Positions 12,563 through 62,555 of a stretch of DNA of 64,000 nt are shown here, piece after piece (position 1 is the first letter of the stretch; each line of letters begins with the position of its first letter). The notes below the pieces were generated by a model. The model saw only the letters and a list, made by a program, of their open reading frames with translations. It was not told the origin of the DNA and did no database searches. Where the stretch lies: the NCBI GenBank assembly GCA_949373235.1, contig CASICQ010000003.1, positions 49,136-113,135 of the forward strand. The letters are read 5' to 3'. This stretch comes from Candidatus Poseidoniaceae archaeon. GTDB lineage: Archaea > Thermoplasmatota > Poseidoniia > Poseidoniales > Poseidoniaceae. Made by a program: the position numbers and the translations under genes.

Positions 12563-12620
12563 GAAGAACTTACAGAAGTGTTAGCGAGGTAAAATATACT
12601 TCATCGCATTGTTAAATTAC

Positions 12621-32894: not shown

Positions 32895-35447
32895 TTAGAG
32901 ATCGATGAGCCCTTTGGCCTTGATCGACTGGAAATCCATTCCGCCTGGGAAACCGAGGTCGACAGGCATACCACCAACCGTGACGATGATGCCAGTGAGA
33001 TGAAGATGAAGACCAACTGGGAAGGTTGAGGGATCGACCTTGGACAACATCTTCCATCCGTTCTGCCCTTTTTTAGAGGCGATGGTAAGTTGATTCGAAT
33101 CACCATGGAGGAACCAAGCATTCGCCCTCCAAGCATGTTGTTTAAGCCCCTTTTTGTGGAAGGCTGGAGGGGGCGCTACGACGTGGACTTTGCTCCAATA
33201 CTCATCGATGCTCTGCTCGGATTCTGTAATCCATTCCAATTCGGTTAATTCGCTTGGGCAAACTGGAGTCAAGCCCATTCGGGACAAATGGCCAAACAAA
33301 GCCCTCAGGTGCGGATGTCGGCCATGTTCGGCCAGCATGGTTTCCGCTGTTGCCACTGCGGTGTTCACTCGACCTGCATCAAGGTGCAACAAGCATCGAA
33401 CGACTTCCCCGTGAACCCATAAATCAATTTCGTTCGTTTTAATGAAACGCTCAAGCAAATCAAGAGCATCTTCGCTTTCTCTCGCCAAGCGCATTCGGGC
33501 GATATCGCCCAGCAAAAAGAGCCGCCCTGCTGGAGAGTCGACGTACTTCAGATCGCTTCTGCTTGTACCCGTTTGAAACCGCTTGACAAGGTCTATGTTT
33601 CGGCGCATGATGCTGTCCATAGACAACTGAGGCTTGAAACGGTCATCGAGTGGTTTTAATTTCGTGCTGAACAACGAAGCAGCCCATTTAATTCGGACGG
33701 TCTCGATGTTATCATCAGGCAGCAGTGGCAGTCGAGGCCTCGCTTCTGCAAAATCTCGTTGTGCCAAACTTGCGGCTGCAAGAATCAATCGGGCCAATTC
33801 TGCTTGCTTGCCCCCCTGGTATGCAATCAGTGAAATAGCGTTTTCTTCGGCATCGTTCCATCGGCTGAAACCAGCGTACAGCGTCATAACCGCAGCCGTT
33901 TTACGACCGAGGCTGACGGCGTCGAGATCCTTACCGTGACCCTGCAGGACTGTATCGAGTTGTTTCAGGGCTTTGACCCATTCATCTTGAGCCACCAAAG
34001 TGGTAAGTGGTTGCTGCTTGAGGTAGATGATATCTTCCATTTCGGTGAACTGTTGCCGTTCTTCTCCAACAGCAGCATCAAAGGTAATGTCTTCAATCTT
34101 AGAGCCGACTCGAAGCGAACTTACCCAGATGGCTAGGAAGGCAATTTGACCACCCGAAGCCAACATCCACGTTAATTCTTCAAGTCCTTCTTTTGTGAGC
34201 ACACTGCAAACTGTCGATTCCCATGTGCCGCATTGAGTGGTTTGAGGAAGAAAACTTGAATCCCAAAATGTAATCATGGCAAGCGCCAAGAGAAGCATGG
34301 ATTGACCGGCGAAGCCAGTGAAGCAAAAATTCAGAACCTTTGCTTGTTGGGAGCGTTCAGCCCTAAGCAAGCGGCTGTCTGCCAATTTAATTCCACCCTT
34401 CCCCGATACATCCTGCACGTTCAAGAACAGGATGTGTGCAACTTCGGAGACAAAGAGAAAACCGATGATGGCCACGTTGAGCAAGAGGAACAGAAGCACC
34501 ATAGAAACAATTGGGACCCGAATGCCATCGATTGGAATGTAAGAAAAGAGCTCGATTAAACCGAAACCAAGCAAACCACCTTCCTCCATGAAGGTTTCTT
34601 GAGGCCTATACTCTGGAAGGTTGAGCACGCGGTCTGAGTGAACCAATAAGTTCGAATCCACCAACAACACAAGGAGGGAAAGCAATGTGTTGAGCGCAAC
34701 AAAGGGCATAATGATAAGGTTGAAATTAACAAATTGTGCTAAGATTTGCTGTCGAGCGTTTGGAGCGTGATTATGGAAAGGTGAAATTTCCCCAATGGCG
34801 GTCTTTTTTGATGATTGGCGAAGGGCTTGCCATGATGACCCGAGGATACGTCCGTAGGCGAGCGCCGAAGGGGAAAATAGCGTTAAAGAAGCAATGCTGA
34901 ACCGTCTAGAATCGGATACGCCGGCATGGCCTAAAGCCATGTAAAGACCACACACAACGGCCAACCAAAACAAAAGCAGGTAGACATAATTGTAAGTGCG
35001 CGCCAAACTTGAACTTTGAAGGGTGGCTCGATCTTGTCGAATTGGTTTCAGAACTTGCGTTCCCAAGGAAGATGCACTCGACACAAGGGCGGGCAAAGCG
35101 ATGAACATCAAGGCAACAGAAAGCGAAGGTGTGTGGTACCCAGAAGAAATATCAAATTGAGTGAGAACGAACTCAAACAAGAGGATCAAAACCCCAACAA
35201 GGGCGAAGAGGTATGTTATGACTCCGAACTTCATGCCTGGAGCGCGCAGCAATTCACGAGCATCGGTCACTGTGTGCGTCACCTGATGGACTTCGTAGGA
35301 TAATTCTCCTGTTTCAAAAGCGACTTGCAATCCACGCAACTGGCGGGGAACAATTTTGGCCCAAAACATCCATGCCGTCAATCCTGCCAGCAAGAGAGGG
35401 ATGATGGCAACAGAAGGAAATCCGTCGATGATAGGGGGTGCTGCCAT
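32895..35447 (-). CDS. Large polytopic integral membrane protein (850 aa), hypothetical
   Basis: There are more than 12 hydrophobic segments. No recognisable catalytic motif was seen. Confidence 0.45.
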   Translation of the reverse strand: MAAPPIIDGFPSVAIIPLLLAGLTAWMFWAKIVPRQLRGLQVAFETGELSYEVHQVTHTVTDARELLRAPGMKFGVITYLFALVGVLILLFEFVLTQFDISSGYHTPSLSVALMFIALPALVSSASSLGTQVLKPIRQDRATLQSSSLARTYNYVYLLLFWLAVVCGLYMALGHAGVSDSRRFSIASLTLFSPSALAYGRILGSSWQALRQSSKKTAIGEISPFHNHAPNARQQILAQFVNFNLIIMPFVALNTLLSLLVLLVDSNLLVHSDRVLNLPEYRPQETFMEEGGLLGFGLIELFSYIPIDGIRVPIVSMVLLFLLLNVAIIGFLFVSEVAHILFLNVQDVSGKGGIKLADSRLLRAERSQQAKVLNFCFTGFAGQSMLLLALAMITFWDSSFLPQTTQCGTWESTVCSVLTKEGLEELTWMLASGGQIAFLAIWVSSLRVGSKIEDITFDAAVGEERQQFTEMEDIIYLKQQPLTTLVAQDEWVKALKQLDTVLQGHGKDLDAVSLGRKTAAVMTLYAGFSRWNDAEENAISLIAYQGGKQAELARLILAAASLAQRDFAEARPRLPLLPDDNIETVRIKWAASLFSTKLKPLDDRFKPQLSMDSIMRRNIDLVKRFQTGTSRSDLKYVDSPAGRLFLLGDIARMRLARESEDALDLLERFIKTNEIDLWVHGEVVRCLLHLDAGRVNTAVATAETMLAEHGRHPHLRALFGHLSRMGLTPVCPSELTELEWITESEQSIDEYWSKVHVVAPPPAFHKKGLKQHAWRANAWFLHGDSNQLTIASKKGQNGWKMLSKVDPSTFPVGLHLHLTGIIVTVGGMPVDLGFPGGMDFQSIKAKGLIDL

Positions 35448-44161: not shown

Positions 44162-45733
44162 TCAAGCACTGATCCATCGGTAACGGCGGGCGCCCTCTTG
44201 GACACCCTCTTCCCCGATTTCAACCAAGGCGAACTCACCTTGTGGTGTGACGACGCTTTCATCCTGCAATCCCTTGTGCAGGTTTTCATAGGTCACATGG
44301 TCAATCGCCATGCGTCCTGCAAGGCGTTCAAAGAGATGCCAGCGAGAAACTACTTCTCGCCATCGAGGACTCACTTTGCCTTCAAACACCTTGGCTTTGG
44401 CGCCTGAACCATAGCCACACAGTCCGAACAAGGTGTTGTCAAGGTTGCAATTCTCTTCCAAATCCGACTCAAAAGTCGACATGAGGGCGAGGAAAATAGA
44501 GCCCGTGTATTGATTGCCAATCAAGCTGCTCGCCCGCTGGCCCTTTTCAATTCGGCTTTCGTGGAACGCAAGGTATTCTGGAGTTTTGGAGATTGCGCGC
44601 CGATAACCGTCCATTGCTTTTTCCCAGATTTCAATGATTTGAGGGTCTTCCGAATTGTGTTCTGCTGGCATTGGTCCAAGTTGTTCTGCCATGTGTTCCC
44701 ACATCTCGGTTTTTTCTCTGTCGTGACGAAAAATATCAGGGAACATGCGCTTGGCTTGGAAGGCATAGGGGAGGTGCATGATGATCCTCGACCATTGTTC
44801 GGTCAGCCTCTCGTCCTCAGCATGCGTGTAACGGCCTTGCCGTTCTGCTTTCTCTGCAAAGTTGTGGAAGGCTTGACGGACTGCAGATTGGTAGCAGCGG
44901 TTGGAATACTGCCCATCGAAAATAGGCTCGTCTCGGTGGACGCTAACGCTGGTTTCACCGTGAGAGAAAATACCGAGTTTGCGGACGGTTGATTCCGGCA
45001 AATGTCGTATCATGCGTTCAACAAGACCTTTCTTCATCGTTTGACCCGTTTCTTGTGCCAGTTGGAGAACATTTGTGATCACTGAACGAAGGGTCACTTC
45101 ACGCCGAGGCTTGAAGAAATCGTGGACTGGGGTTGTTGAAACACCAATGCAATCAGGTATTTCCAGCAACCGAGGGTTGCGGCGAATGAGCAACGCTCCG
45201 CCACCTGCACCCTGGGTGTATTCTCCGGAAGATTCGAGAGCGTATTTTGCGTTGTCTGAAAAAATGACAATGCCAACTCGCTCGTCGTGTTCGGTCGAAC
45301 GAGCAACCCAGTCTAAGGTCGTGTGAAGCGCATCGACTGCCCCAATGCAAGCAAACGTCATGTCGACCACGTCGCAGTTCCTGAAGCAGGCCGAGCCATA
45401 TCGCTCTTCATAGCGCTGTGTGAGCATATCGACGATGTAGGTTGCAGTTGGTTTGGCACCGTCTAAAGCAGACTCGGTTCCGAGGTACATTCGTCCAACG
45501 GTGTTTGGGTCCAATCCGTTGCGATCAATGATTTGCATAACCGCCATTGCCCCCATAGTGGCTGTGTCTTCGTGAACATCGGGAATGGCCATGGCTTCAA
45601 GACCAAGTCCTTTGTTGAGTTTTCCAAAATCTGCACCCCGCAGTTCAGCGAAATCCCTCATGTCCATGTAGAGACGCGGGAAATGAATTGCAATGTCGTC
45701 GATACCAACGCAAATATCCTTGTCGGTTCCCAT
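44162..45733 (-). CDS. hmgB: Hydroxymethylglutaryl-CoA synthase (eukaryote/haloarchaeal-like long form)
   Basis: VGIDDIAIHFP, GTESALDGAKP, the catalytic-Cys context DMTFACIGAV and a C-terminal YGSGAKA segment parallel HMGCS motifs. Confidence 0.75.
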   Translation of the reverse strand: MGTDKDICVGIDDIAIHFPRLYMDMRDFAELRGADFGKLNKGLGLEAMAIPDVHEDTATMGAMAVMQIIDRNGLDPNTVGRMYLGTESALDGAKPTATYIVDMLTQRYEERYGSACFRNCDVVDMTFACIGAVDALHTTLDWVARSTEHDERVGIVIFSDNAKYALESSGEYTQGAGGGALLIRRNPRLLEIPDCIGVSTTPVHDFFKPRREVTLRSVITNVLQLAQETGQTMKKGLVERMIRHLPESTVRKLGIFSHGETSVSVHRDEPIFDGQYSNRCYQSAVRQAFHNFAEKAERQGRYTHAEDERLTEQWSRIIMHLPYAFQAKRMFPDIFRHDREKTEMWEHMAEQLGPMPAEHNSEDPQIIEIWEKAMDGYRRAISKTPEYLAFHESRIEKGQRASSLIGNQYTGSIFLALMSTFESDLEENCNLDNTLFGLCGYGSGAKAKVFEGKVSPRWREVVSRWHLFERLAGRMAIDHVTYENLHKGLQDESVVTPQGEFALVEIGEEGVQEGARRYRWISA

Positions 45734-52126: not shown

Positions 52127-52882
52127 TCAGGCATTGCCCCGGGTGGTCTTGCAACCAACGCCCCATTCGCTTTCAGTCATTGCTTTCCTTGTCGCTTCGA
52201 GCAGCGCATCCTCCGGGGTTGGAACAGCGCGGATCCCCGCTGTAAAGGCGATGGCCATACTGGCCTCCTTGTGAGCCCACTTTACCAATTGAATTTTTGA
52301 TTTTTCAATTGATAAGTATGACCGTTCTACTCCAATTGGAATTTCAATTTTCCTCGGGTTCAGGTGCATGCCTAGGCCAAGGGATTTTTGGATTGCTTCT
52401 TTGGAAACCCACGCTTCGATGGCGCAAGAAGGGTGAGCGAGTAAAAACTCCAGTTCTGCTCCTTTGGCCATCATGGAAAAGGCGTTTGGTTGGATGCCTC
52501 GGTCGCTCGGCTCTCCGTCCAAACCAACGCACCATTCAGGCTCGGCAATGGCCACATAAGCCCACCCGCCGCTGTGACAGAGGCTGATCGAAGGCAGCGG
52601 CGTGTTCTTCCAAACGCCTGCGATGTAGGCGAGGTAAGGAGCTCGATGTTTCGTACGTTCAACGCTCACCAGCGTGGCATCAATGCCCCACAGGGCGAGG
52701 GCTTCTTGCAACAACCAGCGGCCTGTGAGGTGCTCATCGCATCGCTTCTGAACGACAAACGTAGCCACTTCATCAGCATCAGCCAAAACCACATGTTCAG
52801 GTTCATGCGTTTGGACTGGACTGCGTAAAACCAAGCAGGTTGGCAAATCATCCCCGGGTGGTTGGAGATGTTCAATTGTCAT
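52127..52882 (-). CDS. 4'-phosphopantetheinyl transferase, Sfp/PfaE type
   Basis: SISLCHSGGWAYVAI (SxSHS-like), CVGLDGEP (Mg-binding GxDxE-like) and WVSKEAIQKSLG (WxxKEAxxK) are present. It lies 12 nt downstream of the megasynthase. Confidence 0.7.
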   Translation of the reverse strand: MTIEHLQPPGDDLPTCLVLRSPVQTHEPEHVVLADADEVATFVVQKRCDEHLTGRWLLQEALALWGIDATLVSVERTKHRAPYLAYIAGVWKNTPLPSISLCHSGGWAYVAIAEPEWCVGLDGEPSDRGIQPNAFSMMAKGAELEFLLAHPSCAIEAWVSKEAIQKSLGLGMHLNPRKIEIPIGVERSYLSIEKSKIQLVKWAHKEASMAIAFTAGIRAVPTPEDALLEATRKAMTESEWGVGCKTTRGNA

Positions 52883-52894
52883 TTTTAGGCCTCA

Positions 52895-54712
52895 TCAACG
52901 CTCAAGCGTGAAGGCTTCTTCATCCGAAACCGGAGCCATGCCCTTGAGGCGTAGACCCTTGAGCGCCAAAACAGGTGCGTCATCTTCTCCGACAATCACC
53001 ACATCATGCACCGTAACACCGGCCTCTTCAACCGAAGTTCGGAGGCTCCGCATACGAAGCAGTTCATCTCGTTCTGGCACCCGAAGCATGGAAGACCATT
53101 CGATGCCTACGGGGAGGGACGAGAAACCTTCGCTCTCCATAGCCACCAATCCCGCATTTTGGAACCCTGCCTCGATGAGCATGGGAAGCGCTTCAAGCAA
53201 GACTGTTTCACCTTCTGATTCATGCGCAAACTGGTCGGTTGCAGGCAATTGATGCCGCATCAAAGCAATGCCGTCTGCCCCTGGCATCGATTCGTCACCG
53301 ACGCCACGCAGAACACCTCCATGCGACTGGAATCGAGGCCCGTGGAAGTACCTGTCATAGATGAAGGAAGGTTGTTCCGCAAGTTCACCAGGCGCGGGAA
53401 TTCCAAGATTCGGGAGCGCTTCCACTTCCGCTTGCAAGAACGGCCAAAGGTCGTCGCCTTTTTCCACGAGGCGTACTGAAGCCTTGTGGTGCTCTCGTTC
53501 ACCAAACACCTCGCCTTTAGAATTCGTAAGATCTGACACGAGGGTGCATTTCACCCATGTGAGGTCGTTTTCCGTCCGATCAAACTCAGCGGTGACTCGC
53601 ACGGTCATCGGTCCTTTGAGCAACTTCACAGGCAAACCGAATTCGACGGATTCAAATCCAGCTAAACAGGTCGAAGGACGCATCAACAACGCCACTTCAG
53701 CGAACATTTCCAACGCCATAACCCCGGGGTGGTACGGAACGCCCTCAATCGCGTGGTCGATCAGGAAGGGGTGGTCCTCTTCCGACAAGGTTGATTGTAC
53801 AGTCAGTGATTGATCTTCTCGGCAGGCAAGCACTTTGTCGATGAAAGGAAAACGTTGTGGGTCGGCAATGATGCTTGCCATTTCAGCAGGTAGACGGAGG
53901 GGGGCTTCTCTAAAGGCATCGAAATGATCCATCTCTCCTAGGGATCCACATCCAATGACGCGACGCTTGCCTCCTGCAAGGGCTTCATCCACAAAGATGT
54001 TCACGCCTTCATCCACTGAAAGGGTGTCAATTCCTGCGGCTTCAAAGACCGCTTCAATTGAGCCTCTTGTCGCCATACCAACGTCCCGCCACCCAGTCCA
54101 ACCAATGGCTACAGCACGGCAGGTTCCAGAAGCGGTGAGCCGTGCCATTTCAGCATCGAGAACACTGTTTGCTGCTGCATAGTCTGTTTGCCCTCCGTTG
54201 CCGAACCGTCCGGCAACGCTGGTGAAGCATGCTGCGAAACGAGGGCTTTCGGCTCCTGAGGCCAAGCATGCGGCAAGCATGCACTGCCAACCATCCACCT
54301 TGACTCGAACCACCTTGTCGAACACATCGTAGTCCTTGTCCGCAACAAGTTTCGAATCCTCTAAACCAGCACCGTGAATCAAGCCCGTAATCGGACGATT
54401 GAGGCTTTCTCCGACCGCTTGCATTGCTTCACGGTCCATGACGTCGACGGGGTGGTATGAGGCAGAGTTGCCCGTGGACTCAATTGAGTTGAGGGTATCA
54501 TACACATCTCGACTGCGAGTGAACTTTTGCCAAGCCTTGTTCCACTCAACCATGGTGACCTTGCCTGATTCGCTTGCCGCAGCAAGACGTTCGCGCAAAG
54601 CCATCCGTTCAACCTCAAGTTCTGGTTCGCCCCAAGTGATCCATGTTTTGGTTTGTTCAATGAGGTGAGAGCGACCAAGAAGGGCGAAATGAGCTCCTGC
54701 ATTGAATGACAT
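52895..54712 (-). CDS. C-terminal fragment of the type I FAS/PKS megasynthase: catalytic ketoreductase subdomain plus PKS-type dehydratase
   Basis: The KR subdomain (about 53918..54712) shows the HGAG...KVDGW...YAAANSVLD catalytic Tyr/Asn region. The DH domain (about 52913..53860) carries the HxxxGxxxxP motif LIDHAIEGVPYHPGV. The reading frame is contiguous with the upstream 2364-aa ORF if one base is removed at the C5 run 54721..54725. Confidence 0.8.
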   Translation of the reverse strand: MSFNAGAHFALLGRSHLIEQTKTWITWGEPELEVERMALRERLAAASESGKVTMVEWNKAWQKFTRSRDVYDTLNSIESTGNSASYHPVDVMDREAMQAVGESLNRPITGLIHGAGLEDSKLVADKDYDVFDKVVRVKVDGWQCMLAACLASGAESPRFAACFTSVAGRFGNGGQTDYAAANSVLDAEMARLTASGTCRAVAIGWTGWRDVGMATRGSIEAVFEAAGIDTLSVDEGVNIFVDEALAGGKRRVIGCGSLGEMDHFDAFREAPLRLPAEMASIIADPQRFPFIDKVLACREDQSLTVQSTLSEEDHPFLIDHAIEGVPYHPGVMALEMFAEVALLMRPSTCLAGFESVEFGLPVKLLKGPMTVRVTAEFDRTENDLTWVKCTLVSDLTNSKGEVFGEREHHKASVRLVEKGDDLWPFLQAEVEALPNLGIPAPGELAEQPSFIYDRYFHGPRFQSHGGVLRGVGDESMPGADGIALMRHQLPATDQFAHESEGETVLLEALPMLIEAGFQNAGLVAMESEGFSSLPVGIEWSSMLRVPERDELLRMRSLRTSVEEAGVTVHDVVIVGEDDAPVLALKGLRLKGMAPVSDEEAFTLER

Positions 54713-57700
54713 TTCTGCTACCCCCGATCACCGATGCAGCCGTGACGCCAGATCCGCCGCCTGAAACCAACCAAGTGTCGTCGGATTGCAAGGGCGTACG
54801 TTCTTCAACCAAATCTTCAGCAAATGCCACAAGCGCCCACCGGCGTTCGTCTCGGTCAAGGCCAATTTCAACCTCGCCCGCAATGTTGAACACGTCATGA
54901 TGAATCAAAGCGGCTGCTTGTGCAGGATCTAGAATGAGTTCAGGATGAACATCAAGGGCACGGCAGCGGAGGTGCGGTTGTTCAAATGCATAGGATTTCG
55001 TCACACCGGAGGCAGCGCATTGAACCGCATTGAACCGCTCACCAATGTTTCCATGTCGTCCATCTAAGGCGGTAATAGAGGCTACAATTCCAGCATCGAG
55101 GTTTGAAAGCTGTGCGTCGAGGCCTTGCAGCAAGGAAAAGTATCCTTGTGCGGCCAGAGCAATCTGAGATGAAGGATGCCCATCTTCCGCCCACGAAGCG
55201 CTGGCCAACTTGAGCGGCGACATGTGAATCAAGGCAGAGATGTTGTGTCCGTTCAAGGCTTGACTCACCGCAGCGATGTGTTCGGGGTTACCGGGATCTG
55301 CACGGTAGACGACTCTCTTGCCTTCTTGCTGGACAGACATGTCCCGAATGTTGCTCTCGAAACCGATGCGAATCGCATCCATGCCGTCCGCTTCAAGGAG
55401 TTGACAGAATACCTCTGCGATGCCCCAACCGTCGTCTGTAACAACGGCTGTTCCCTTCAAAGACATGGGGGCATCTCGACCCGGTGCTGCTTCAACTTCA
55501 ATTTGCCAGCGTCGTGATTCAACGGTTGTGGTCGTTGAAACCAAAGAGGGAGCGGTTGATGCCTCCGTTTGGCTTGGAGGGGCGGGTGAACCAGTGGATG
55601 CATCGCCCTTCATGCGGAGGATGTAGGCAGTAAAATGGTTCAGCGTAGGATGATCAGACAAGACGAAGTCTTCGTCCAATGGAAGGTCGAACACCTCTCG
55701 TACATCACCCATAATTTCGGCTTGCTTCACGGTGTCTATGCCCAATTCTCCCTCGAGGTCTTGATCCATTTCAATGAAATCAGCTGGGTAACCCGTGTGC
55801 TTAACGACAATCTCAACCAATTGGTCATCAACTGTGCCGTCTGTTGCCACACCTTTCGGTTTTGAGGTTGTTGGCTCACTTGGGGCAGGTGCTACCGGGG
55901 CAGGTGCTACCGGTGCTGGTGGAGAGGGCGCCGGTGCTGCCTTGGCTGGGCTCGATGGTGCTTCGCCTCCTTGCATGCGATGGATGTAGGCAATCATGTG
56001 ATTCAAGGTTGGATAATCGGATAGAACAAAATCTTCATCAAGCGGTAAACCAAATCGATCGCGTATGTCCGCCATAATTTCGGCTTGCTTCACCGTGTCA
56101 ATCCCCAATTCACCTTCGAGGTCCTGGTCGAGTTCAATGAAATCAGCCGGATAACCGGTGTGAGTCACGACAACTTCGACCACAGTGGCCCGCAAATGCT
56201 CTTCATCAACCGGGGAGGCTGGAGGGTGTGGGGCTGGGGAAGCAAGAGGTTGCGATTCAGCGACTGGCTGTGGTGCTTCCTCAGAAGGCAGTTGGGTCGG
56301 TGCAGCAGGTGCTGGAACGGGAGCAGTGGTTCCACCGCTCATTCGTTGAATGTAGCCAATCATGTGATTCAAGGTCGGATAATCAGAGAGCACAAATTCT
56401 TCATCCACAGGGAGGTTGAACCGTTCACGAATATCAGCCATGATCTCGGCCTGCTTGACCGTATCAATGCCCAACTCACCCTCTAGGTCCTGATCCAATT
56501 CAACAAAATCAGCTGGGTAGCCCGTGTGATTGACAACCACATCGATGACTACGGTGACGGCATCGCCTTCAGCGACAGCCGACGGGCTGAGTGATTGTAC
56601 TGAAGCCGGTGCTGGTGTTGGAGCAGGGAGGCTCGGCTGAGGAGCGGGGACTGAAACTGGTGGAGGAACGGGGGTTGGGACTGGGTTTGGCACAACCGAG
56701 GGTTTGCCTTCAAAAGGCGCTGTGATGGGCCAAGGATCCCCTTGAACGCCGCCATGAAGGTTGTTCTCACCGTCCACATAAGCAACCAACTTCTGATCCA
56801 GCAAACGCATGACTACGTCTTCATTGCCCGCTAAGCGACGGTTCCATGCCAGGAATTTCGCCCCGTCAATCCGTTCACCAACAACGGGCCAGCGGCGAAC
56901 AAGTGAAAGCGCCATTTGAGACCCAAATCCAGCAGCGAACCGAAGGCCGTACTTGAGGTTTGGATAATCGCCACCTTTTGAGAGGTTGAGGTTACCCAAC
57001 TCAGGGTCGACTTCCTTGTGGTTTGCAATCGGAGGTATCCTTCCAGTTTTCATGCCGTGGAACATGCTGGCGTCTTCAATTCCAACTGCCATTGGATGAC
57101 CAGTGAAGCCTTTTGTGTTCGCAATGACAAGTTTGTCCGTGCTGTGTGTGAAGGTGTCTCGCAACGCCCGAACTTCGGATTGCGCCGACCCACCCCGAGC
57201 AGGGGTGTAGGTCTCATGGGAGAAAAACACGGTGTCAGAAGCGATTTCATGGCGGTCGATGCCCCATTGTTGTTCCATGGAGGTGACGAAGTTGTCCACC
57301 GTTTCAGCAACGTGATCAACATCAAGGCGAGTGCCGTGGAAGGCGGAATTGGCGGTGGTCGCACCGAGCAATTCTGCAATTGGTTGAACACCACGCTCTT
57401 CCGCTTCTGAATTGCGTTCAACAACGAAGGCTGCTGCGCCCATGCCGAGGATCAATCCATTGCGCCTCCGGTCGAATGGCAATGCTGTTTCTTCGACCAC
57501 GTTGTGGGTTGCAGCAGCTCCTGATGCGGCGAAGCCCCCACCAATCCATTCCCACATGTCATCGCCCGTTACGTCATCCGCCGAGATGATAACAACACGA
57601 TCGACGCGATCGGCGTTGAGCCAATCTTCCGCAACGCCAAACGCTGCTGTGGCCGATGCACACGCTAGATTGATGATTGTGTTTGGACCTCGAATACCAG

Positions 57701-60700
57701 AGTATTGAGCGAATTGTGAATGGCCCATTGCTAGAGTTTGGAACAGGTACCGTCGATCAAAGCGCCCCTCACCGTCGTCGCCGTTTGCTTTCGCATGTTT
57801 CAGGGCCATTTGGAAGCCAGGGAAACACGAAGCGAAGACGATTCCTGTTCGATCCCGGGTGTGCTGAGGGACTTGCCAGTTTCGAATCAAGCGCAATCCG
57901 CCCTTGCCGATTTGTTCAACGGGAGTCAATGGAATCGCTGCATCTCTTAGGGCAAGGAGCCCAGCGGCCATGCCGAGTTGTGTCGTTATGTCCCAAGCCA
58001 GTATGACCTTTGGATCAATGCCAAATTCTTCTGCAAGATCAAAAGCACCTTTCACGCCTGCGAGTTGGGGCACGTCGCCAAACGCTGTGGCTTGGTCCAT
58101 GTTCACTGAACCATCTCGCCCTTTGATCAAGCGAACCAGATTCTTGTCCAGTAAGCGTTGCTTGTAATCATCGGTGACTTCTGAGATGCAAGTTTCACCG
58201 CGAACAAGGCGCTCAAAAGTATCTTCATTGAACACACTCTCCCCGCCAGGAAGTCCAAGCGACACGCCCGTTACGACAAACGGATCTGCACGGCGCCGGC
58301 TCATTGGGTCATGGCCTGTTGCAGGGGCATGACCTGCAGAAGAAGGAGCGGCCATTCGAGTCATTGAGGACTTCGGTGACCAACCAGCAGGAGGTGTTGC
58401 AATCCAACGGGCTACGTCCGCAACCGTTTTGGCGCCGCTAACGTCCACTTCCGGGTCGGTTTTCGCCTCGGAAACCACAGTTTGGAACAGAGAGGCAATG
58501 CTTGCTTCCGACATGCCAAGGCCAAGGCGTAAATCGACCATTCCGTGGCAGAAACGAGCGGGATAATTCGTAAGGGAAGCAATCCGGTCTCCAAGGTAAG
58601 CATCCTTGGCTTTTTGAGCGGCAATCTCCGGATCGAGGTTCGGGGAGCTCGAGGCTTGCTGAACATGCACCACTTGAGGTGTTCCAGTTCCAGCAGCAGA
58701 AGGCAACGGGCGGGCTCGCGTGCGCAAATCTTCACCCGATGAGGTGGCTCGATGTGCTTCAATTGGCCCGGCACGGAACGCTTCGGTCAGTGCGGCTGAT
58801 GTTGGCGCCGGCCAATTCATCGGACGTCCTGCGAGCGCCATCGTAGCGAGGGCGGTCAAAAAGGATGCGATTCCACCTTGTTTGGGGTGGTTTGTCATGA
58901 CTGGCAAGTGAGGCTGATCTTCAAGAATCTGAACCGCAAACATGCTCAGAGCGCGCTTGGGCCCGACTTCGATGAACGCTCGTGCTCCGGCTTCATACAT
59001 GGTTTGAATTTGAGCGGTCCATTCAACTGAGGAAGCCATTTGCAAGGCTAACTTGCTGAGAACTGCGGATTTCGAAGCCTCCAAATCCTCGCTGTCTGAA
59101 GGGTTCATTGGGTAGAATTCCCCGTCGACATTGGCCGTGATTGGGATGGTGGGCCAACGAATATCAAGCCCTTCTAAGAACCTGCGAAGAGGTTCGTTGG
59201 CTGGTGCGACAATCCTCGAATGGAAAGCGTGGGAGGTGGCCAATGGCATCGATTGGAATCCTTTGGCTTCAAACTCAGCCATTGCGGCCTTCACCGGTTC
59301 TGTTTCACCAGCGATGACGGTCATCTTTGGAGAATTTTTATTCGCTGCGATGACGTAACCGTCGACAGCGTTGATGATTGTTTCAACCTCTGAATATGGC
59401 GCACTAACGCTTGCCATGAGCCCTTTATCGTCAATTTCTACAGCGCCCATTTCAGTTCCGCGAGCAGCTGCTGCACGAAGTGCTCCGTCCATATCCAAAA
59501 TCCCTGCAGCCATCAAGGCAGCGTATTCGCCGAGCGAATGGCCAGCGACCATATCGGGGTGAATGCCGTGATCGTTGAGCGCTCGCTCGATGGCCAGGTC
59601 AGCGGTCAACATGGCAGGCTGAGTGTATTCTGTCTGCTTTAGTTTGTGTTCAGCCTCTGCCTGTTCTTCTTTCGAGAGGTTTGACCGAAGTACGAAACTT
59701 GACAGGGTTTCACCTTCAAGCACCTCGATCATGGTCTCATCGGCCTTGGCCCAAACCTGCTGAACCGCAGTGTAGCGTTGATGCAGATCATGGGTCATAC
59801 CGACGTATTGACTGCCTTGTCCAGGGTACATGTGCGCAACCTTGGCTTTAGCATGAAGCGGAGCGTCTTTGGTGATCAAAACGCCTTGGGCTTGTAGGAA
59901 GCCCCACTTGTCTTCATCGTCCATGGCCTTGAGAGCCAATTCAACTCGCTTGTTGAACTCGGCCCAATTGGTGGCAATAACGGCCATCCGCATTGAAGCG
60001 CTTGAATCAAAGGAACTTGATGCAGCATAGAGAGCATAAGACAGACGGATTCCTTTCGGGTCTTCATCGAAGGTGGCTCCTTCGAAGGAAGTTGTCGTGA
60101 GGGCCTGCCTTAGGCCTTCGAGGGATTCGGCAGAGAGCAGAAGCATGCCACCTTCAACCGCTTTGAGTTGTTCGTGAGTCATGCTTGGTGCCGCAGAACC
60201 ATCGAGAATGGACGGGGCGGAAGGGGTTGTTGAAGAAGAGGTTTCAATCGCAGCATAGGCTTGCCATCGAAGATCCCATTCGCGCGCCAACGGAGCGTGA
60301 TATTCTGGCTCATAGCCCTCAAGAGCGATGTGGAAGTTCGTACCGCCGAAGCCAAAGGCGGAAATGCCTGCCCGTCGCGGGTGGTGTTCAGGTCGAGGCC
60401 AATCGCGGGCTTCGGTTGGAACAAAGAAGGGAATCTCACTCCATTCAACGGTCGGGTTTGGCGTTTCAAACCCTGCGGATGGGGGAATGGTGCGGTGGTG
60501 AAGCGCCATAACGGTCTTCATGATTCCTGCAATACCAGCAGCGGCTTTGAGATGGCCAATCTGAGATTTTATCGAGCCGACAGCAACATGGTCTCCACTT
60601 GGGAACCCGTCCCAAAGCAAAGATAACGTCGACAATTCGGTCGCATCTCCCACCTTTGTCGAGGTGCCGTGGGCTTCCACGAGTTCCACTGTGCTTGCAG

Positions 60701-61751
60701 GATACCCCGCTTGATTGTACGCTCGGGCGATGGCCTGAACTTGGCCCCGCTGGCTTGGTGCAGTGATGCCCTTGCCGCGCCCATCGGAGGAACCACCTAT
60801 GCCACGGATGACTGCGTGAACCTCATCGCCATCTGCCAAAGCATCGCTCAGGCGTTTCAACAGCAACACACCAGCCCCCTCACCCATCACAAAGCCGTTT
60901 GCTCGGGCATCAAATGGGGTTGAATGAGTCGGTGATAAAGCGCCAATGGCACTGAACTTCGAAAATGTGGCCGGATCCATCGTACGGTCTGTAGCCCCTG
61001 CGAGCATGAGGTCCACCTGACGGGTTTGCAGCAATCGGCAAGCATCCAAAACAGCCGCCATGGAAGACGCACAGGCGGCGTCCATTGCGTGGTTGGGGCC
61101 TTGTAAATCGAGTAGGTTTGCGACTCGGCCTGAAACCACATTGGCCAATTCCCCAGGCATTGTGTCTTCATCGATTCGTGGCGTACCCTCAACCAACTCT
61201 TCGGTGAACGCTTCGATGTTCTGTTCTGCAAGCCCATGCTTCTTAGCCAGCTCTTTGGTGTGGTTGGACCACACGCGAATGTTGGAAAGGTTGCGGTTCT
61301 CACCGCCGAGCGCATTTGCGAAAACAACGCCACATCGAGTGCGATCGATGTCTTTTGTTTCGCCATCATAGCCGGCTTGCTCGATGGCATCTGCTGCTAC
61401 AGAAACCGCCCAAAGTTGGCATGGATCAATTTGCGGGAGGGTGCCTGGTGGCTGCCTCCATCGACGCCAGTCGAATTCGAACCCTTCGACAAGAGCTCCG
61501 ATTTTGGCGTAGGTGAACCCTTCTTTGCTGTCGCCAGGCCCACCTTCTCGATAGAAATGGTTGATTGGACCCGGCCATCGGCCTTCCTGTATCTCTCGAA
61601 TACTGACTTTGGAATCGATGATGTTCTGCCAGAAGGCTTCGATGCTTGGCGCGTCAGGCATCAGGGCTGCCAAACCGATGACTGCAATCGGTTCGAACGG
61701 TCCTTGATCAAGCCCTTCGCAGGGTTTGCCATTTGCTGTTGTGATCGTCAT
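54657..61751 (-). CDS. Type I FAS/PKS megasynthase, PfaA-like: KS - malonyl-AT - second KS - 3 tandem ACP-like domains - KR structural subdomain and start of the KR Rossmann fold
   Basis: KS1 (about 60327..61694) has GPNHAMDAACASS, EAHGTSTKVGD and KSQIGHLKAAAG. AT (about 58947..59834) has GQGSQY, GHSLGE and the malonyl-type SHAFHS. KS2 (about 56892..58289) has NLACASATAAF, FHGTRLD and GFTGHPMAVG. Three repeats of HTGYPADF(V/I)E(L/M)DQDLEGELGIDTVKQAEIM are PfaA-style ACPs with Thr at the Ser position. The ORF ends within the KR GGGSG loop because of a frameshift. Confidence 0.85.
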   Translation of the reverse strand: MTITTANGKPCEGLDQGPFEPIAVIGLAALMPDAPSIEAFWQNIIDSKVSIREIQEGRWPGPINHFYREGGPGDSKEGFTYAKIGALVEGFEFDWRRWRQPPGTLPQIDPCQLWAVSVAADAIEQAGYDGETKDIDRTRCGVVFANALGGENRNLSNIRVWSNHTKELAKKHGLAEQNIEAFTEELVEGTPRIDEDTMPGELANVVSGRVANLLDLQGPNHAMDAACASSMAAVLDACRLLQTRQVDLMLAGATDRTMDPATFSKFSAIGALSPTHSTPFDARANGFVMGEGAGVLLLKRLSDALADGDEVHAVIRGIGGSSDGRGKGITAPSQRGQVQAIARAYNQAGYPASTVELVEAHGTSTKVGDATELSTLSLLWDGFPSGDHVAVGSIKSQIGHLKAAAGIAGIMKTVMALHHRTIPPSAGFETPNPTVEWSEIPFFVPTEARDWPRPEHHPRRAGISAFGFGGTNFHIALEGYEPEYHAPLAREWDLRWQAYAAIETSSSTTPSAPSILDGSAAPSMTHEQLKAVEGGMLLLSAESLEGLRQALTTTSFEGATFDEDPKGIRLSYALYAASSSFDSSASMRMAVIATNWAEFNKRVELALKAMDDEDKWGFLQAQGVLITKDAPLHAKAKVAHMYPGQGSQYVGMTHDLHQRYTAVQQVWAKADETMIEVLEGETLSSFVLRSNLSKEEQAEAEHKLKQTEYTQPAMLTADLAIERALNDHGIHPDMVAGHSLGEYAALMAAGILDMDGALRAAAARGTEMGAVEIDDKGLMASVSAPYSEVETIINAVDGYVIAANKNSPKMTVIAGETEPVKAAMAEFEAKGFQSMPLATSHAFHSRIVAPANEPLRRFLEGLDIRWPTIPITANVDGEFYPMNPSDSEDLEASKSAVLSKLALQMASSVEWTAQIQTMYEAGARAFIEVGPKRALSMFAVQILEDQPHLPVMTNHPKQGGIASFLTALATMALAGRPMNWPAPTSAALTEAFRAGPIEAHRATSSGEDLRTRARPLPSAAGTGTPQVVHVQQASSSPNLDPEIAAQKAKDAYLGDRIASLTNYPARFCHGMVDLRLGLGMSEASIASLFQTVVSEAKTDPEVDVSGAKTVADVARWIATPPAGWSPKSSMTRMAAPSSAGHAPATGHDPMSRRRADPFVVTGVSLGLPGGESVFNEDTFERLVRGETCISEVTDDYKQRLLDKNLVRLIKGRDGSVNMDQATAFGDVPQLAGVKGAFDLAEEFGIDPKVILAWDITTQLGMAAGLLALRDAAIPLTPVEQIGKGGLRLIRNWQVPQHTRDRTGIVFASCFPGFQMALKHAKANGDDGEGRFDRRYLFQTLAMGHSQFAQYSGIRGPNTIINLACASATAAFGVAEDWLNADRVDRVVIISADDVTGDDMWEWIGGGFAASGAAATHNVVEETALPFDRRRNGLILGMGAAAFVVERNSEAEERGVQPIAELLGATTANSAFHGTRLDVDHVAETVDNFVTSMEQQWGIDRHEIASDTVFFSHETYTPARGGSAQSEVRALRDTFTHSTDKLVIANTKGFTGHPMAVGIEDASMFHGMKTGRIPPIANHKEVDPELGNLNLSKGGDYPNLKYGLRFAAGFGSQMALSLVRRWPVVGERIDGAKFLAWNRRLAGNEDVVMRLLDQKLVAYVDGENNLHGGVQGDPWPITAPFEGKPSVVPNPVPTPVPPPVSVPAPQPSLPAPTPAPASVQSLSPSAVAEGDAVTVVIDVVVNHTGYPADFVELDQDLEGELGIDTVKQAEIMADIRERFNLPVDEEFVLSDYPTLNHMIGYIQRMSGGTTAPVPAPAAPTQLPSEEAPQPVAESQPLASPAPHPPASPVDEEHLRATVVEVVVTHTGYPADFIELDQDLEGELGIDTVKQAEIMADIRDRFGLPLDEDFVLSDYPTLNHMIAYIHRMQGGEAPSSPAKAAPAPSPPAPVAPAPVAPAPSEPTTSKPKGVATDGTVDDQLVEIVVKHTGYPADFIEMDQDLEGELGIDTVKQAEIMGDVREVFDLPLDEDFVLSDHPTLNHFTAYILRMKGDASTGSPAPPSQTEASTAPSLVSTTTTVESRRWQIEVEAAPGRDAPMSLKGTAVVTDDGWGIAEVFCQLLEADGMDAIRIGFESNIRDMSVQQEGKRVVYRADPGNPEHIAAVSQALNGHNISALIHMSPLKLASASWAEDGHPSSQIALAAQGYFSLLQGLDAQLSNLDAGIVASITALDGRHGNIGERFNAVQCAASGVTKSYAFEQPHLRCRALDVHPELILDPAQAAALIHHDVFNIAGEVEIGLDRDERRWALVAFAEDLVEERTPLQSDDTWLVSGGGSGVTAASVIGGSRNVIQCRSSFRPSWSLSPH
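55608..56579 (-). repeat. Three tandem coding repeats (363-366 nt period) encoding ACP-like carrier domains joined by Pro/Ala-rich linkers
   Basis: The repeat units are about 70-aa identical-motif blocks separated by PAP-rich linkers. The copies are diverged at synonymous sites. The 'Ser-position' codons are CGT/CGT/GGT on the plus strand, which read ACG/ACG/ACC (Thr) on the coding strand, at 56460..56462, 56094..56096 and 55731..55733. Confidence 0.85.
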
Positions 61752-61760
61752 GCGCTCACT

Positions 61761-62555
61761 TCACTGATCCATGATGCTCTGAGGCACCATGGTGATCGAA
61801 TAACCGCCATCGACGTATATGCACTGGCCTGTAACGCCGCTTGCGAGAGGGCTTGCAAGCCAAAGCGTTGCTCCCGCTACATCGTTTTGATTGACGTTAC
61901 GGCGCAATGGTGCATTGGCTTCGACGTGGTCAAGGATTTTGTCAAAACCCGGAATGCCACCTGCGGCAATGGTGCGTATGGGGCCGGAAGAGATGGCGTT
62001 GACGCGATGACCTTCCGGACCGAGGTGGCACGCAAGTTCCCTCGTCCAGCATTCCAATGCAGCCTTAGCCATCGACATGATGCCATAATTAGGAACATAT
62101 CGGGTCGAAGCGGCGTAGGTTAGCGTGATGGTGGACGAACCAGGGTTGAGGTAAGGCAGCGCATGCTTCAAGCAACGTTGCAGCGAATTTGCTGAAATGG
62201 TCATGGCCGTGTTGATATCAGCATCTTCGACGAAGAGAATGGGGCGATCAAAGCAACTTCGAGGCGCAAAGCCGATCGCATGAATGAGAATATCAGCCTT
62301 GAGCCCTGGATGTTCTGCTGCAAAGGCGTCGAAAAATTCCTTTGTTGTTGCGTCCTCTGCCACATCAAGCGGGTAGAATCCGCCAATTTGTGGTAATTTG
62401 TCTTTGAGTTGGAAAATTCGGCTCATGAATCGCTTCTGATACCCGAGGTAAAGCGTCACACCAGCGGCCGCCAACTGTTGACAAATCGCCCAAGCGATGG
62501 AATCCTCGCTCGCCACACCAAACACGAAGGCGGTCTTTCCTTGCAATTGTAGCAT
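61761..62555 (-). CDS. fabI: Enoyl-[acyl-carrier-protein] reductase, FabI-like (SDR family)
   Basis: LQGKTAFVFGVASEDSIAWAICQQLAAAGVTL parallels the FabI N-terminus [21 protein letters not shown]. The FabI-type Tyr/Lys catalytic spacing (YxxMxxxK region AASTRYVPNYGIMSMAKAALE) is present. It lies 9 nt upstream of the megasynthase. Confidence 0.8.
   Translation of the reverse strand: MLQLQGKTAFVFGVASEDSIAWAICQQLAAAGVTLYLGYQKRFMSRIFQLKDKLPQIGGFYPLDVAEDATTKEFFDAFAAEHPGLKADILIHAIGFAPRSCFDRPILFVEDADINTAMTISANSLQRCLKHALPYLNPGSSTITLTYAASTRYVPNYGIMSMAKAALECWTRELACHLGPEGHRVNAISSGPIRTIAAGGIPGFDKILDHVEANAPLRRNVNQNDVAGATLWLASPLASGVTGQCIYVDGGYSITMVPQSIMDQ

What the first reader, a model, noticed from the sequence alone, without database searches (positions are those of the whole stretch)
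55608..56579. All three tandem carrier domains have threonine at the invariant phosphopantetheine-attachment serine position
Each repeat reads ...HTGYPADF(V/I)E(L/M)DQDLEGELGIDTVKQAEIM... . This aligns with PfaA ACPs (TGYP...DLGIDSIKRVEIL), in which the Ser of GxDS carries the 4'-phosphopantetheine arm.

Here the residue is Thr in all three copies. The Thr codons on the coding strand are ACG, ACG and ACC, at 56460..56462, 56094..56096 and 55731..55733. The repeats differ at synonymous sites (ATT GAT ACG GTC, ATT GAC ACG GTG, ATA GAC ACC GTG). Thr is therefore maintained by selection and is not a recent duplication artefact or a single sequencing error.

No natural carrier protein using Thr is known to me. 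Possible explanations are:
- O-phosphopantetheinylation of Thr by the co-encoded, divergent PPTase;
- carrier-like domains with a structural, non-covalent role, with a stand-alone ACP encoded elsewhere;
- a different covalent modification.

Any of these would be novel.
Basis: seen in the sequence. Interest (0 to 1): 0.85.

Follow-up and report, generated by a model that had tools for sequence, protein, structure and literature searches.

The report
Carrier domains with threonine attachment site
A giant fatty-acid/polyketide synthase in a marine archaeon, and its whole family in archaea and bacteria, has threonine where every characterised acyl carrier protein I know of has the serine that holds the phosphopantetheine arm, so this family probably uses an undescribed threonine-linked cofactor attachment.

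Summary
All three tandem PP-binding (PF00550) domains read LGIDTVKQAE, with Thr (ACG, ACG, ACC) aligned to the phosphopantetheine-bearing Ser of solved ACPs. In an AlphaFold model this Thr is the first residue of helix II.

The trait is not peculiar to this genome.
- The window is from a Marine Group II archaeon (Ca. Poseidoniales).
- The locus is FabI-like reductase | KS-AT-KS-ACP3-KR-DH | Sfp-type PPTase. This is the "Type R secondary lipid synthase" architecture (Shulse & Allen 2011), whose product is unknown.
- In a search seeded independently of the ACP motif, 505 of 505 ACP domains in 120 family members carry Thr.
- In a full HMMER scan, 103 of the best 150 representatives are all-Thr. 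PfaA-type relatives are all-Ser.
- Two lineages nested inside the Thr clade have reverted to Ser in every tandem copy.
- A catalytically intact PPTase was adjacent in seven of the eight family loci inspected.

Best reading (about 0.65): Thr is the 4'-phosphopantetheine attachment site and is primed by the co-encoded PPTase. Ten literature searches found no report of this.

The window's gene carries a one-base frameshift in a G5 run. A 91%-identical relative has an intact 2953-aa ORF.

The parts
61761..62555 (-). FabI-like enoyl-ACP reductase (264 aa), directly upstream. Probable trans-acting ER of the synthase.
   Evidence: Pfam adh_short_C2 at 4.2e-70. NCBIfam FabI models at about 1e-66 but below their cut-offs. 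The same position is conserved in L001, L004 and L006.
54657..61751 (-). Megasynthase ORF, part 1 (2364 aa): KS1-AT-pseudoACP-KS2-ACP1-ACP2-ACP3 and the N-terminus of KR (GGGSGVTAA Rossmann motif).
   Evidence: The best NCBIfam model is TIGR02813 PfaA at 728 bits, below its cut-off of 1010.
60282..61694 (-). KS1 domain, with active-site Cys in DAACASS.
   Evidence: Pfam ketoacyl-synt, Ketoacyl-synt_C and KAsynt_C_assoc, aa 20-490. Cys motif.
58833..59831 (-). Acyltransferase (malonyl-CoA:ACP transacylase-like) domain with GHSLG.
   Evidence: Pfam Acyl_transf_1 at 9e-36, aa 641-973. FabD TIGR00128 at 2.7e-58. GHSLG.
58398..58601 (-). Degenerate ACP-like segment (..NYPARF..LGLGMSEASI..) between AT and KS2. 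Seen only in the archaeal clade, with no conserved hydroxyl residue at the attachment position.
   Evidence: Alignment with P0243 (LGLDQMRL) and P0247 (LGLNESSI). Absent from bacterial members. No Pfam hit.
56886..58283 (-). KS2 domain. Shulse & Allen call it 'CLF', but here it keeps the active-site Cys (NLACASA).
   Evidence: Second ketoacyl-synt stretch. Cys motif at aa 1363.
56331..56561 (-). ACP1. Thr codon ACG at 56460-56462.
   Evidence: PF00550 at 36.2 bits. Codon.
55965..56198 (-). ACP2. Thr codon ACG at 56094-56096.
   Evidence: PF00550 at 42.2 bits. AF2 pLDDT 92.6 with Thr at the start of helix II. PDB alignments.
55602..55832 (-). ACP3. Thr codon ACC at 55731-55733.
   Evidence: PF00550 at 34.7 bits. 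Codon.
54721..54725 (-). G5 run on the coding strand carrying one extra base. This frameshift splits the KR domain between two ORFs.
   Evidence: Deleting one G gives a single 2951-aa ORF. L004, 91% identical over 10.4 kb, reads ATCGGTG-TGGCAG here and has an intact 2953-aa ORF. L006 has an intact 3278-aa ORF.
52895..54712 (-). Megasynthase, part 2 (605 aa as called): the rest of KR, then a PKS-type dehydratase.
   Evidence: Pfam KR at 4.9e-24 starting at profile position 37, PKS_DH_N at 2.1e-8, PS-DH.
52127..52882 (-). Sfp-type 4'-phosphopantetheinyl transferase (251 aa), immediately downstream.
   Evidence: The single sequence scores below the Pfam cut-offs (22 v 25 bits). The family profile hits human AASDHPPT at 3.7e-10 and Sfp at 1.9e-8, with GxDxE and WxxKExxxK aligned. 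Residues K46 R47 G54 R55 H103 S104 D122 E124 E162 K166 are invariant or nearly so. AF2 pLDDT is 89 and the top 30 PDB fold hits are all Sfp-type PPTases.

Best explanation
**What it is.** The three domains are working acyl carrier domains of an iterative, PUFA-synthase-like type I fatty-acid/polyketide synthase. Its order is KS1-AT-KS2-ACP3-KR-DH, with a FabI-like reductase acting in trans. It sits in a Marine Group II archaeon.

**Proposed mechanism.** The hydroxyl that receives 4'-phosphopantetheine from CoA is the side chain of Thr at the N-terminus of helix II, in place of the canonical Ser. The Sfp-type PPTase encoded directly downstream carries out the transfer. It has the normal Mg2+/CoA catalytic residues. 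I infer that it has co-adapted to the secondary alcohol of Thr.

**Evolution.** Thr was probably fixed once at the base of this ('Type R'-like) clade and has been kept by selection since. It travels with Val at +1 and Gln at +3 (DTVKQ), against DSIK(R/K) in PfaA-type relatives.

**Shown here:**
- the register, fold and conservation of the Thr;
- the clade-wide distribution;
- linkage to the PPTase and the integrity of its catalytic motifs;
- Ser reversions inside the clade.

**Inferred:**
- that Thr is actually pantetheinylated;
- that the PPTase is Thr-adapted;
- that the product is a fatty acyl chain.

**Speculative benefits of Thr:**
- orthogonality to housekeeping AcpS or ACP hydrolases;
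- greater resistance of the phosphodiester to beta-elimination.
For: 1. The Thr aligns to the modified Ser of solved ACPs. It is the first residue of helix II in a confident model, and the fold hits are ACPs.
2. These are the only carrier domains in the synthase. The extra ACP-like stretch is degenerate and clade-restricted.
3. LGIDTVKQAE is invariant across 52 aligned homologues down to about 43% identity.
4. In a search seeded by a 2891-aa bacterial member, and so not biased by the ACP motif, 505 of 505 ACPs in 120 proteins carry Thr.
5. In an index-free HMMER scan of 1.84 billion representatives, 103 of the best 150 are all-Thr and 43 are all-Ser.
6. Ser is one transversion away (ACN to TCN). 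The window's copies are synonymously saturated yet all Thr. Thr is therefore selected.
7. Two Ser-Val lineages are nested within the Thr clade on a KR-DH tree. These are P0324 (LGVDSVKQAEIM x2) and P0321 (x5). Clade support is 200/200 and 199/200. P0324 keeps the same architecture and a homologous PPTase at 38% identity. A hydroxyl at this exact position is thus the conserved requirement.
8. A PPTase lies immediately downstream in the window, L001, L003, L004, L005, L006 and L008. Its catalytic motifs are intact and its fold is Sfp-type.
9. Tandem ACP arrays of 3-6 copies match those of PUFA synthases. From my own knowledge, copy number there scales throughput.
Against: - There is no biochemical evidence here or in the searched literature that any PPTase modifies Thr.
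- From my own recollection, the S36T mutant of E. coli ACP is not modified by AcpS (Keating et al. 1995). I did not verify this with the tools.
- One bacterial locus (L007) shows no PPTase within 6 kb.
- The window's own gene is frameshifted, so this particular copy might be non-functional.
- The Thr-Val v Ser-Ile covariation is confounded by phylogeny.
- The bipartition separating all Ser-Ile proteins from the rest has only 109/200 bootstrap support.
Confidence: 0.65

Rival explanations
1. The Thr domains are carrier-like but never pantetheinylated. They act as scaffolds or docking domains, and intermediates travel on CoA or on a separate Ser-type ACP encoded elsewhere.
For: Ser is otherwise near-universal at this site. 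From my own recollection of Lombard et al. 2012 (not checked here), archaea are proposed to make fatty acids without ACP. The window's own PPTase scores below Pfam cut-offs as a single sequence. L007 lacks an adjacent PPTase.
Against: - The same Thr domains occur in bacteria that surely possess ACP systems.
- A catalytically intact Sfp-type PPTase is adjacent in 7 of 8 family loci inspected.
- Archaea rarely carry a PPTase without a substrate, and no other carrier is encoded in the locus.
- The attachment-site motif is the most conserved part of the domain. A non-catalytic scaffold would be expected to drift at exactly this position.
- The site has twice reverted to Ser rather than drifting to other residues.
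- Only 2 of 621 aligned domain sites carry a non-hydroxyl residue, one Ala and one Asp.
Confidence: 0.12
2. Thr carries a different covalent group. Candidates are a different CoA-derived prosthetic group, or direct O-acyl (oxoester) tethering of intermediates.
For: Thr is chemically distinct from Ser. The +1 and +3 positions co-vary (DTVKQ v DSIKR), which suggests an altered recognition surface. Other prosthetic groups on ACP-like proteins exist; from my own knowledge, citrate lyase and malonate decarboxylase ACPs use 2'-(5''-phosphoribosyl)-3'-dephospho-CoA.
Against: - The linked enzyme is a PPTase with standard Sfp-type catalytic residues. It is not a CitX/MdcG-type transferase.
- KS, AT, KR and DH are ordinary thioester-handling domains with intact Cys and Ser nucleophiles.
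- From established KS chemistry, oxoester malonyl units are poor substrates for decarboxylative Claisen condensation.
Confidence: 0.1
3. The pantetheine is attached elsewhere, to another Ser, Thr or Tyr in the domain such as the Ser of VLSDYPT. On this view the helix-II Thr is incidental.
For: The window's copies do contain a Ser in VLSD(Y/H)PT.
Against: - That Ser is Ala in L001 and Arg in most bacterial members.
- The other conserved hydroxyl residues (T of TGYP, T of YPTL) are equally present in Ser-type PfaA-like ACPs, so they are not a replacement.
- Sequence and structural alignments put the Thr at the canonical site.
Confidence: 0.03
4. The finding is an artefact, or decay in a dead gene. 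The ORF is frameshifted, so the Thr could be pseudogene drift or assembly error.
For: There is a one-base insertion in a G5 run at 54721-54725. Many homologues in MAGs are fragmented at the repeats.
Against: - Thr is present in hundreds of independent assemblies, including intact 2953-aa and 3278-aa ORFs.
- Among the repeats, dN is far below the saturated synonymous divergence.
- The frameshift is a single indel in a homopolymer relative to a 91%-identical intact relative. That is typical of an assembly error or a very recent event.
Confidence: 0.02

Closest known systems
'Type R' secondary lipid synthase gene clusters (Shulse & Allen 2011, PLoS One 6:e20146; PMC3098273)
   Same: One pfaA-like gene with KS-MAT-CLF-ACP(3-6)-KR, followed by a PPTase gene and sometimes linked to acetyl-CoA carboxylase. 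Reported in Acidobacteria, Chloroflexi (Roseiflexus) and Elusimicrobium. The window and its homologues have this architecture. Named homologues fall in the same phyla.
   Different: That paper mentions neither threonine nor archaea, and the product is unknown. Here the second KS keeps its catalytic Cys. A DH follows KR. The archaeal loci use a FabI-like ER where the bacterial loci have ACAD/ETF genes. I did not compare sequences directly with the named Type R genomes.
PfaA of bacterial PUFA synthases (TIGR02813) and its tandem ACPs
   Same: KS-AT-ACPn-KR-DH backbone. Tandem ACPs share the TGYP...DLE.DLGID(S/T)(I/V)K motif. A dedicated Sfp-type PPTase (PfaE) is present. PfaA-type proteins were retrieved by the ACP query.
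   Different: PfaA ACPs have Ser-Ile (LGIDSIKRVEIL). The window scores 728 bits on TIGR02813 against a cut-off of 1010. It has an extra KS between AT and the ACPs. No PfaB, PfaC or PfaD partners are in the locus.
Canonical carrier proteins (PF00550), such as E. coli AcpP, AcpM and PigH ACPs
   Same: Four-helix fold. The Asp-hydroxyl residue motif sits at the N-terminus of helix II. Pfam scores are above threshold.
   Different: Thr replaces the invariant Ser.
Sfp-type (group II) PPTases: Sfp, human AASDHPPT, PptT, PcpS
   Same: Two-lobed fold and catalytic motifs GxDxE and WxxKExxxK.
   Different: About 16% identity. The window protein alone falls below the Pfam gathering scores. The archaeal clade has a conserved C-terminal extension, TPED.LLE.TR.AM...WGVGCKTTR. 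The presumed substrate hydroxyl is on Thr.

Membership tests
Carrier protein / PP-binding (PF00550) | Sequence match above the Pfam gathering score | tested here: met
   36.2, 42.2 and 34.7 bits against a cut-off of 20.8.
Carrier protein / PP-binding (PF00550) | Small helical-bundle fold with the attachment residue at the N-terminus of helix II | tested here: met
   AF2 pLDDT 92.6 with helix II starting at residue 40, the Thr. Foldseek top hits are ACPs with TM up to 0.86.
Carrier protein / PP-binding (PF00550) | Conserved Ser in the (D/G)xDS motif as the phosphopantetheine acceptor | tested here: not met
   Thr in all three copies and in 505 of 505 domains of 120 family members.
Carrier protein / PP-binding (PF00550) | Post-translational 4'-phosphopantetheinylation | not testable with these tools
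   Needs mass spectrometry of the expressed domain with its PPTase.
Type R secondary lipid synthase (Shulse & Allen 2011) | Single pfaA homologue with KS-MAT-CLF-ACP(3-6)-KR | tested here: met
   KS-AT-KS-ACP3-KR(-DH). Homologues have 3-6 ACPs. Definition.
Type R secondary lipid synthase (Shulse & Allen 2011) | PPTase gene downstream | tested here: met
   52127-52882, and likewise in L001, L003, L004, L005, L006 and L008.
Type R secondary lipid synthase (Shulse & Allen 2011) | KS-domain phylogeny clustering with the named Type R members (Roseiflexus, Koribacter, Solibacter, Elusimicrobium) | not tested
Only same-phylum homologues were seen: Chloroflexi and Terriglobales.
PfaA, omega-3 PUFA synthase subunit (TIGR02813) | Score above the NCBIfam cut-off | tested here: not met
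   728.1 bits against a cut-off of 1010.1.
PfaA, omega-3 PUFA synthase subunit (TIGR02813) | Partner genes pfaB, pfaC and pfaD in the cluster | tested here: not met
   Neighbours are a FabI-like ER, a PPTase, an M28 peptidase and chaperones.
Sfp-type PPTase | Catalytic motifs: H of the SHS-like motif, GxDxE, (W/F)xxKExxxK | tested here: met
   H103/S104, G120-D122-E124 and W158-K161-E162-K166 are conserved and align to Sfp and AASDHPPT.
Sfp-type PPTase | Pseudo-dimeric two-lobe fold | tested here: met
   AF2 pLDDT 89.2. The top 30 PDB matches are all Sfp-type PPTases, with E down to 1.2e-9.
Sfp-type PPTase | Pfam ACPS (PF01648) above the gathering score | tested here: inconclusive
   The window protein scores 22.0 bits against a cut-off of 25. 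Most close homologues carry a precomputed PF01648 hit.

The most novel reading that the evidence does not exclude
This family uses an obligate threonine-linked 4'-phosphopantetheine, the first natural O-phosphopantetheinyl-threonine. It is installed by a co-evolved, Thr-adapted PPTase, which makes the ACP/PPTase pair naturally orthogonal. In Marine Group II archaea the synthase is conserved across the order. According to Rinke et al. 2019, these archaea lack G1P dehydrogenase but have G3P dehydrogenase. On this reading the synthase is the source of fatty acyl chains for bacterial-type or mixed membrane lipids.
Probability: 0.3. Interest if true: 0.9.

Novelty: new variant of a known kind. Interest (0 to 1): 0.78.

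Why it matters
The Ser acceptor of 4'-phosphopantetheine is treated as invariant in fatty-acid, polyketide and non-ribosomal peptide biochemistry. It is used as such to call domains active or inactive in genome mining.

**Consequences of a clade-wide Thr acceptor**
- A large, phylogenetically broad clade with invariant, selected Thr would extend the chemistry of this modification.
- It would correct automated "inactive ACP" calls.
- It could provide an orthogonal ACP/PPTase pair for engineering and protein labelling.

**Relevance to archaeal lipids**
- The locus places a complete type I FAS-like machine, with ACPs and a PPTase, in the most abundant surface-ocean archaea.
- As I recall the literature, archaea as a group are thought to lack ACP-dependent fatty-acid synthesis.
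- The membrane lipid composition of Marine Group II archaea is an open "lipid divide" question (Rinke et al. 2019).

Both points can be tested directly with one small expression experiment.

Tried and rejected
**Biased or unproductive searches**
- The first homologue search with an ACP domain uses a word index that favours GIDTV-containing hits. I therefore did not use it as evidence of conservation. I repeated the survey with an index-free HMMER scan and with a full-length bacterial query.
The named Type R genomes could not be fetched as a result.
- The listing of cluster members gave no organism names for the short fragments.

**Short hits explained**
- The many 60-150-aa "stand-alone ACP" hits are gene-calling fragments of the megasynthase in error-prone assemblies. 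They are not free-standing ACPs.

**Structural and sequence checks**
- phmmer of the window PPTase against PDB sequences found nothing. A family profile and a fold search were needed.
I redid it without them.
- I considered whether the ACP-like stretch between AT and KS2 could be the real carrier. I rejected this because it is degenerate, has no conserved hydroxyl and is absent from bacterial members.
- I considered recent duplication or gene conversion as the reason all copies share Thr. I rejected this because synonymous sites are saturated.

**Literature**
- Ten full-text searches found no report of Thr-type carrier proteins, and none of a PKS/FAS in Marine Group II archaea.
- The PPTase review by Beld et al. 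was not available.
Full report
**1. The observation**

The minus-strand ORF 54657..61751 encodes 2364 aa. Pfam finds KS (aa 20-490), AT (641-973), a second KS, and three PP-binding domains. Scanned alone, the three repeats score 36.2, 42.2 and 34.7 bits on PF00550, against a gathering score of 20.8.

Each repeat contains LGIDTVKQAE.

Three checks confirm the register:
- phmmer alignments to solved ACPs (PigH, AcpM, S. coelicolor ACP) put this Thr on the Ser of the D-S-(L/I/V) motif.
- An AlphaFold2 model of ACP2 has mean pLDDT 92.6, and helix II begins at the Thr.
- The best structural matches in the PDB are all ACPs.

The three copies are 72-74% identical in DNA. Synonymous differences are saturated and dN is 0.11-0.18. 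They are therefore old duplicates under purifying selection, not a recent duplication carrying one error.

**2. Context**

The window comes from an archaeon. It encodes a thermosome, CDC48, a TrmB regulator and HMG-CoA synthase. The closest homologues are from Candidatus Poseidoniales (Marine Group II) MAGs.

The locus reads as follows:
- a FabI-like enoyl reductase (61761-62555);
- the megasynthase;
- a 251-aa PPTase (52127-52882);
- then an M28 peptidase.

The same synteny is found in L001, L004 and L006.

The ORF stops inside the KR Rossmann fold, and the next ORF (52895-54712) continues KR and adds a PKS-type DH. Removing one G from a G5 run at 54721-54725 fuses them into a single 2951-aa protein. 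L004 is 91% identical over 10.4 kb, has one base fewer there, and carries an intact 2953-aa ORF. L006 has an intact 3278-aa ORF. The break is a single homopolymer indel, either an assembly error or a very recent lesion.

**3. Thr is a family trait**

The first ACP search returned only Thr sequences, but its word index is biased towards the query motif. Two surveys avoid that bias.

*Index-free HMMER scan.* I scanned 1.84 billion representatives with ACP2. Among the best 150 proteins:
- 103 are all-Thr;
- 43 are all-Ser, of the PfaA-type LGIDSIKRVEIL and LGIDSIKKAQLF kinds;
- 4 carry one deviant domain.

*Full-length bacterial query.* A search with a 2891-aa bacterial member returned 120 megasynthases of the same architecture. 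All 505 of their ACP domains carry Thr. Named sources include Myxococcales/Polyangiaceae, Chloroflexi (Ca. Chloroploca, Kouleothrix, Ca. Oscillochloris fontis), Terriglobales and Leptospiraceae.

The neighbouring residue co-varies with the site:

| Site and +1 residue | Domains |
|---|---|
| Thr-Val | 393 |
| Ser-Ile | 208 |
| Thr-Ile | 10 |
| Ser-Val | 7 |

I built a neighbour-joining tree on the KR-DH region, which is independent of the ACPs. The two Ser-Val proteins fall inside the Thr clade:
- P0324 sits within the archaeal group (200/200 bootstraps for the group of four).
- P0321 sits within a bacterial subgroup (199/200).

In both proteins every tandem copy is Ser. P0324 keeps the same architecture and a homologous downstream PPTase.

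The conserved requirement is therefore a hydroxyl side chain at this exact position. Thr is strongly preferred in this clade, even though Ser is only one transversion away.

**4. The PPTase**

As a single sequence the PPTase falls just below Pfam thresholds and finds nothing in PDB sequences. The family evidence is clearer:
- More than 1000 homologues exist, mostly from Poseidoniales.
- The Sfp-type catalytic residues are conserved.
- A family profile matches human AASDHPPT (3.7e-10) and Sfp (1.9e-8), with GxDxE and WxxKExxxK aligned.
- The AF2 model has pLDDT 89, and its top 30 PDB fold matches are all Sfp-type PPTases.

The PPTase lies immediately downstream of the synthase in seven of the eight family loci inspected. 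The exception is L007, where a multidomain acetyl-CoA carboxylase follows instead.

**5. Interpretation**

The best-supported explanation is that these are functional carrier domains whose phosphopantetheine is attached to Thr by the co-encoded PPTase. The synthase would then work as an iterative type I FAS/PKS:
- AT loads malonyl units.
- Two Cys-containing KS domains, KR, DH and the trans FabI-like ER carry out the chain-extension cycle.

Pantetheinylation of Thr, adaptation of the PPTase to Thr, and the nature of the product are all inferences.

Rivals and why each is less likely:
- **Unmodified scaffold domains.** This is disfavoured by the PPTase linkage, by the extreme conservation of the site, and by the reversions to Ser.
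- **A different prosthetic group or oxoester chemistry.** This is disfavoured because the linked transferase and all catalytic domains are ordinary.
- **Attachment at another residue.** This is disfavoured because the VLSD Ser is not conserved, and the other conserved hydroxyl residues are shared with Ser-type ACPs.
- **Artefact.** This is excluded for the Thr itself.

**6. Comparison with what is known**

The architecture matches the "Type R secondary lipid synthase" of Shulse & Allen 2011. That type is KS-MAT-CLF-ACP(3-6)-KR plus a downstream PPTase, sometimes with ACC, in Acidobacteria, Roseiflexus and Elusimicrobium, and its product is unknown. The paper mentions neither threonine nor archaea.

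The window is not a PfaA by NCBIfam's criterion (728 bits against a cut-off of 1010), and it lacks pfaB, pfaC and pfaD.

Rinke et al. 2019 report that Poseidoniales lack G1P dehydrogenase but have G3P dehydrogenase, and they discuss mixed membranes. They do not mention this synthase.

Ten full-text searches found no report of a Thr-type carrier protein or of this synthase in Marine Group II archaea. The library excludes most subscription journals, so prior description cannot be ruled out.

**7. Verdict**

The gene-cluster type is already catalogued. The Thr acceptor, its co-variation with the +1 residue, and its presence in abundant marine archaea appear to be unreported. I rate it a new variant of a known kind, with high interest, and it can be tested with a simple co-expression and mass-spectrometry experiment.

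Noticed in passing
window 54721-54725 (- strand G5 run): A one-base insertion splits the megasynthase inside the KR domain into ORFs 54657-61751 and 52895-54712. The 91%-identical relative L004 and the more distant L006 have single intact ORFs of 2953 and 3278 aa.
   Followed up: yes
window 58398-58601 (-): A degenerate ACP-like segment (NYPARF...LGLGMSEASI) lies between AT and KS2. It is present only in the archaeal clade (P0243 has LGLDQMRL, P0247 has LGLNESSI) and has no conserved hydroxyl at the attachment position. It may be a relic carrier or a docking domain.
   Followed up: partly
window 52130-52222 (-), C-terminus of the PPTase: The Marine Group II PPTases share a conserved C-terminal extension, TPED.LLE.TR.AM....WGVGCKTTR, that is absent from the bacterial PPTases L003 and L008 and from L006. 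It is a helix at aa 223-237 followed by a low-confidence tail with an invariant Cys. Function unknown.
   Followed up: partly
ACP helix II, window 56457-56459, 56091-56093, 55728-55730 (Val after Thr): There is strong covariation of the attachment residue with its +1 neighbour across 621 domains: Thr-Val 393, Ser-Ile 208, Thr-Ile 10, Ser-Val 7. Gln at +3 goes with Thr, against Arg/Lys with Ser. This may be steric compensation or a changed PPTase recognition surface, but it is confounded by phylogeny.
   Followed up: partly
L002, L003, L007, L008 (bacterial-type loci): The bacterial Thr-type synthases are preceded by a 540-560-aa acyl-CoA dehydrogenase. It is often accompanied by ETF alpha/beta and an Fe-S/CCG oxidoreductase, and is often linked to acetyl-CoA carboxylase genes. 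The archaeal loci have a FabI-like reductase instead. This suggests a different enoyl-reduction solution.
   Followed up: no
window 56886-58283 (-): The second KS is called a chain-length factor in the Type R description, yet it retains the active-site Cys (NLACASA) and downstream HGT / GH motifs. It may therefore be a catalytically active second ketosynthase.
   Followed up: partly
window 7214-10630 (+), 12609-14624 (+), 24682-27852 (-), 32895-35447 (-): Four large ORFs (1138, 671, 1056 and 850 aa) have no Pfam match at E<=0.001.
   Followed up: no
window 44162-45733 (-): The HMG-CoA synthase homologue is 523 aa, which from memory seems longer than typical archaeal HMG-CoA synthases. It matches the N- and C-terminal HMG_CoA_synt Pfam domains only moderately (2.4e-20 and 1.6e-14).
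   Followed up: no
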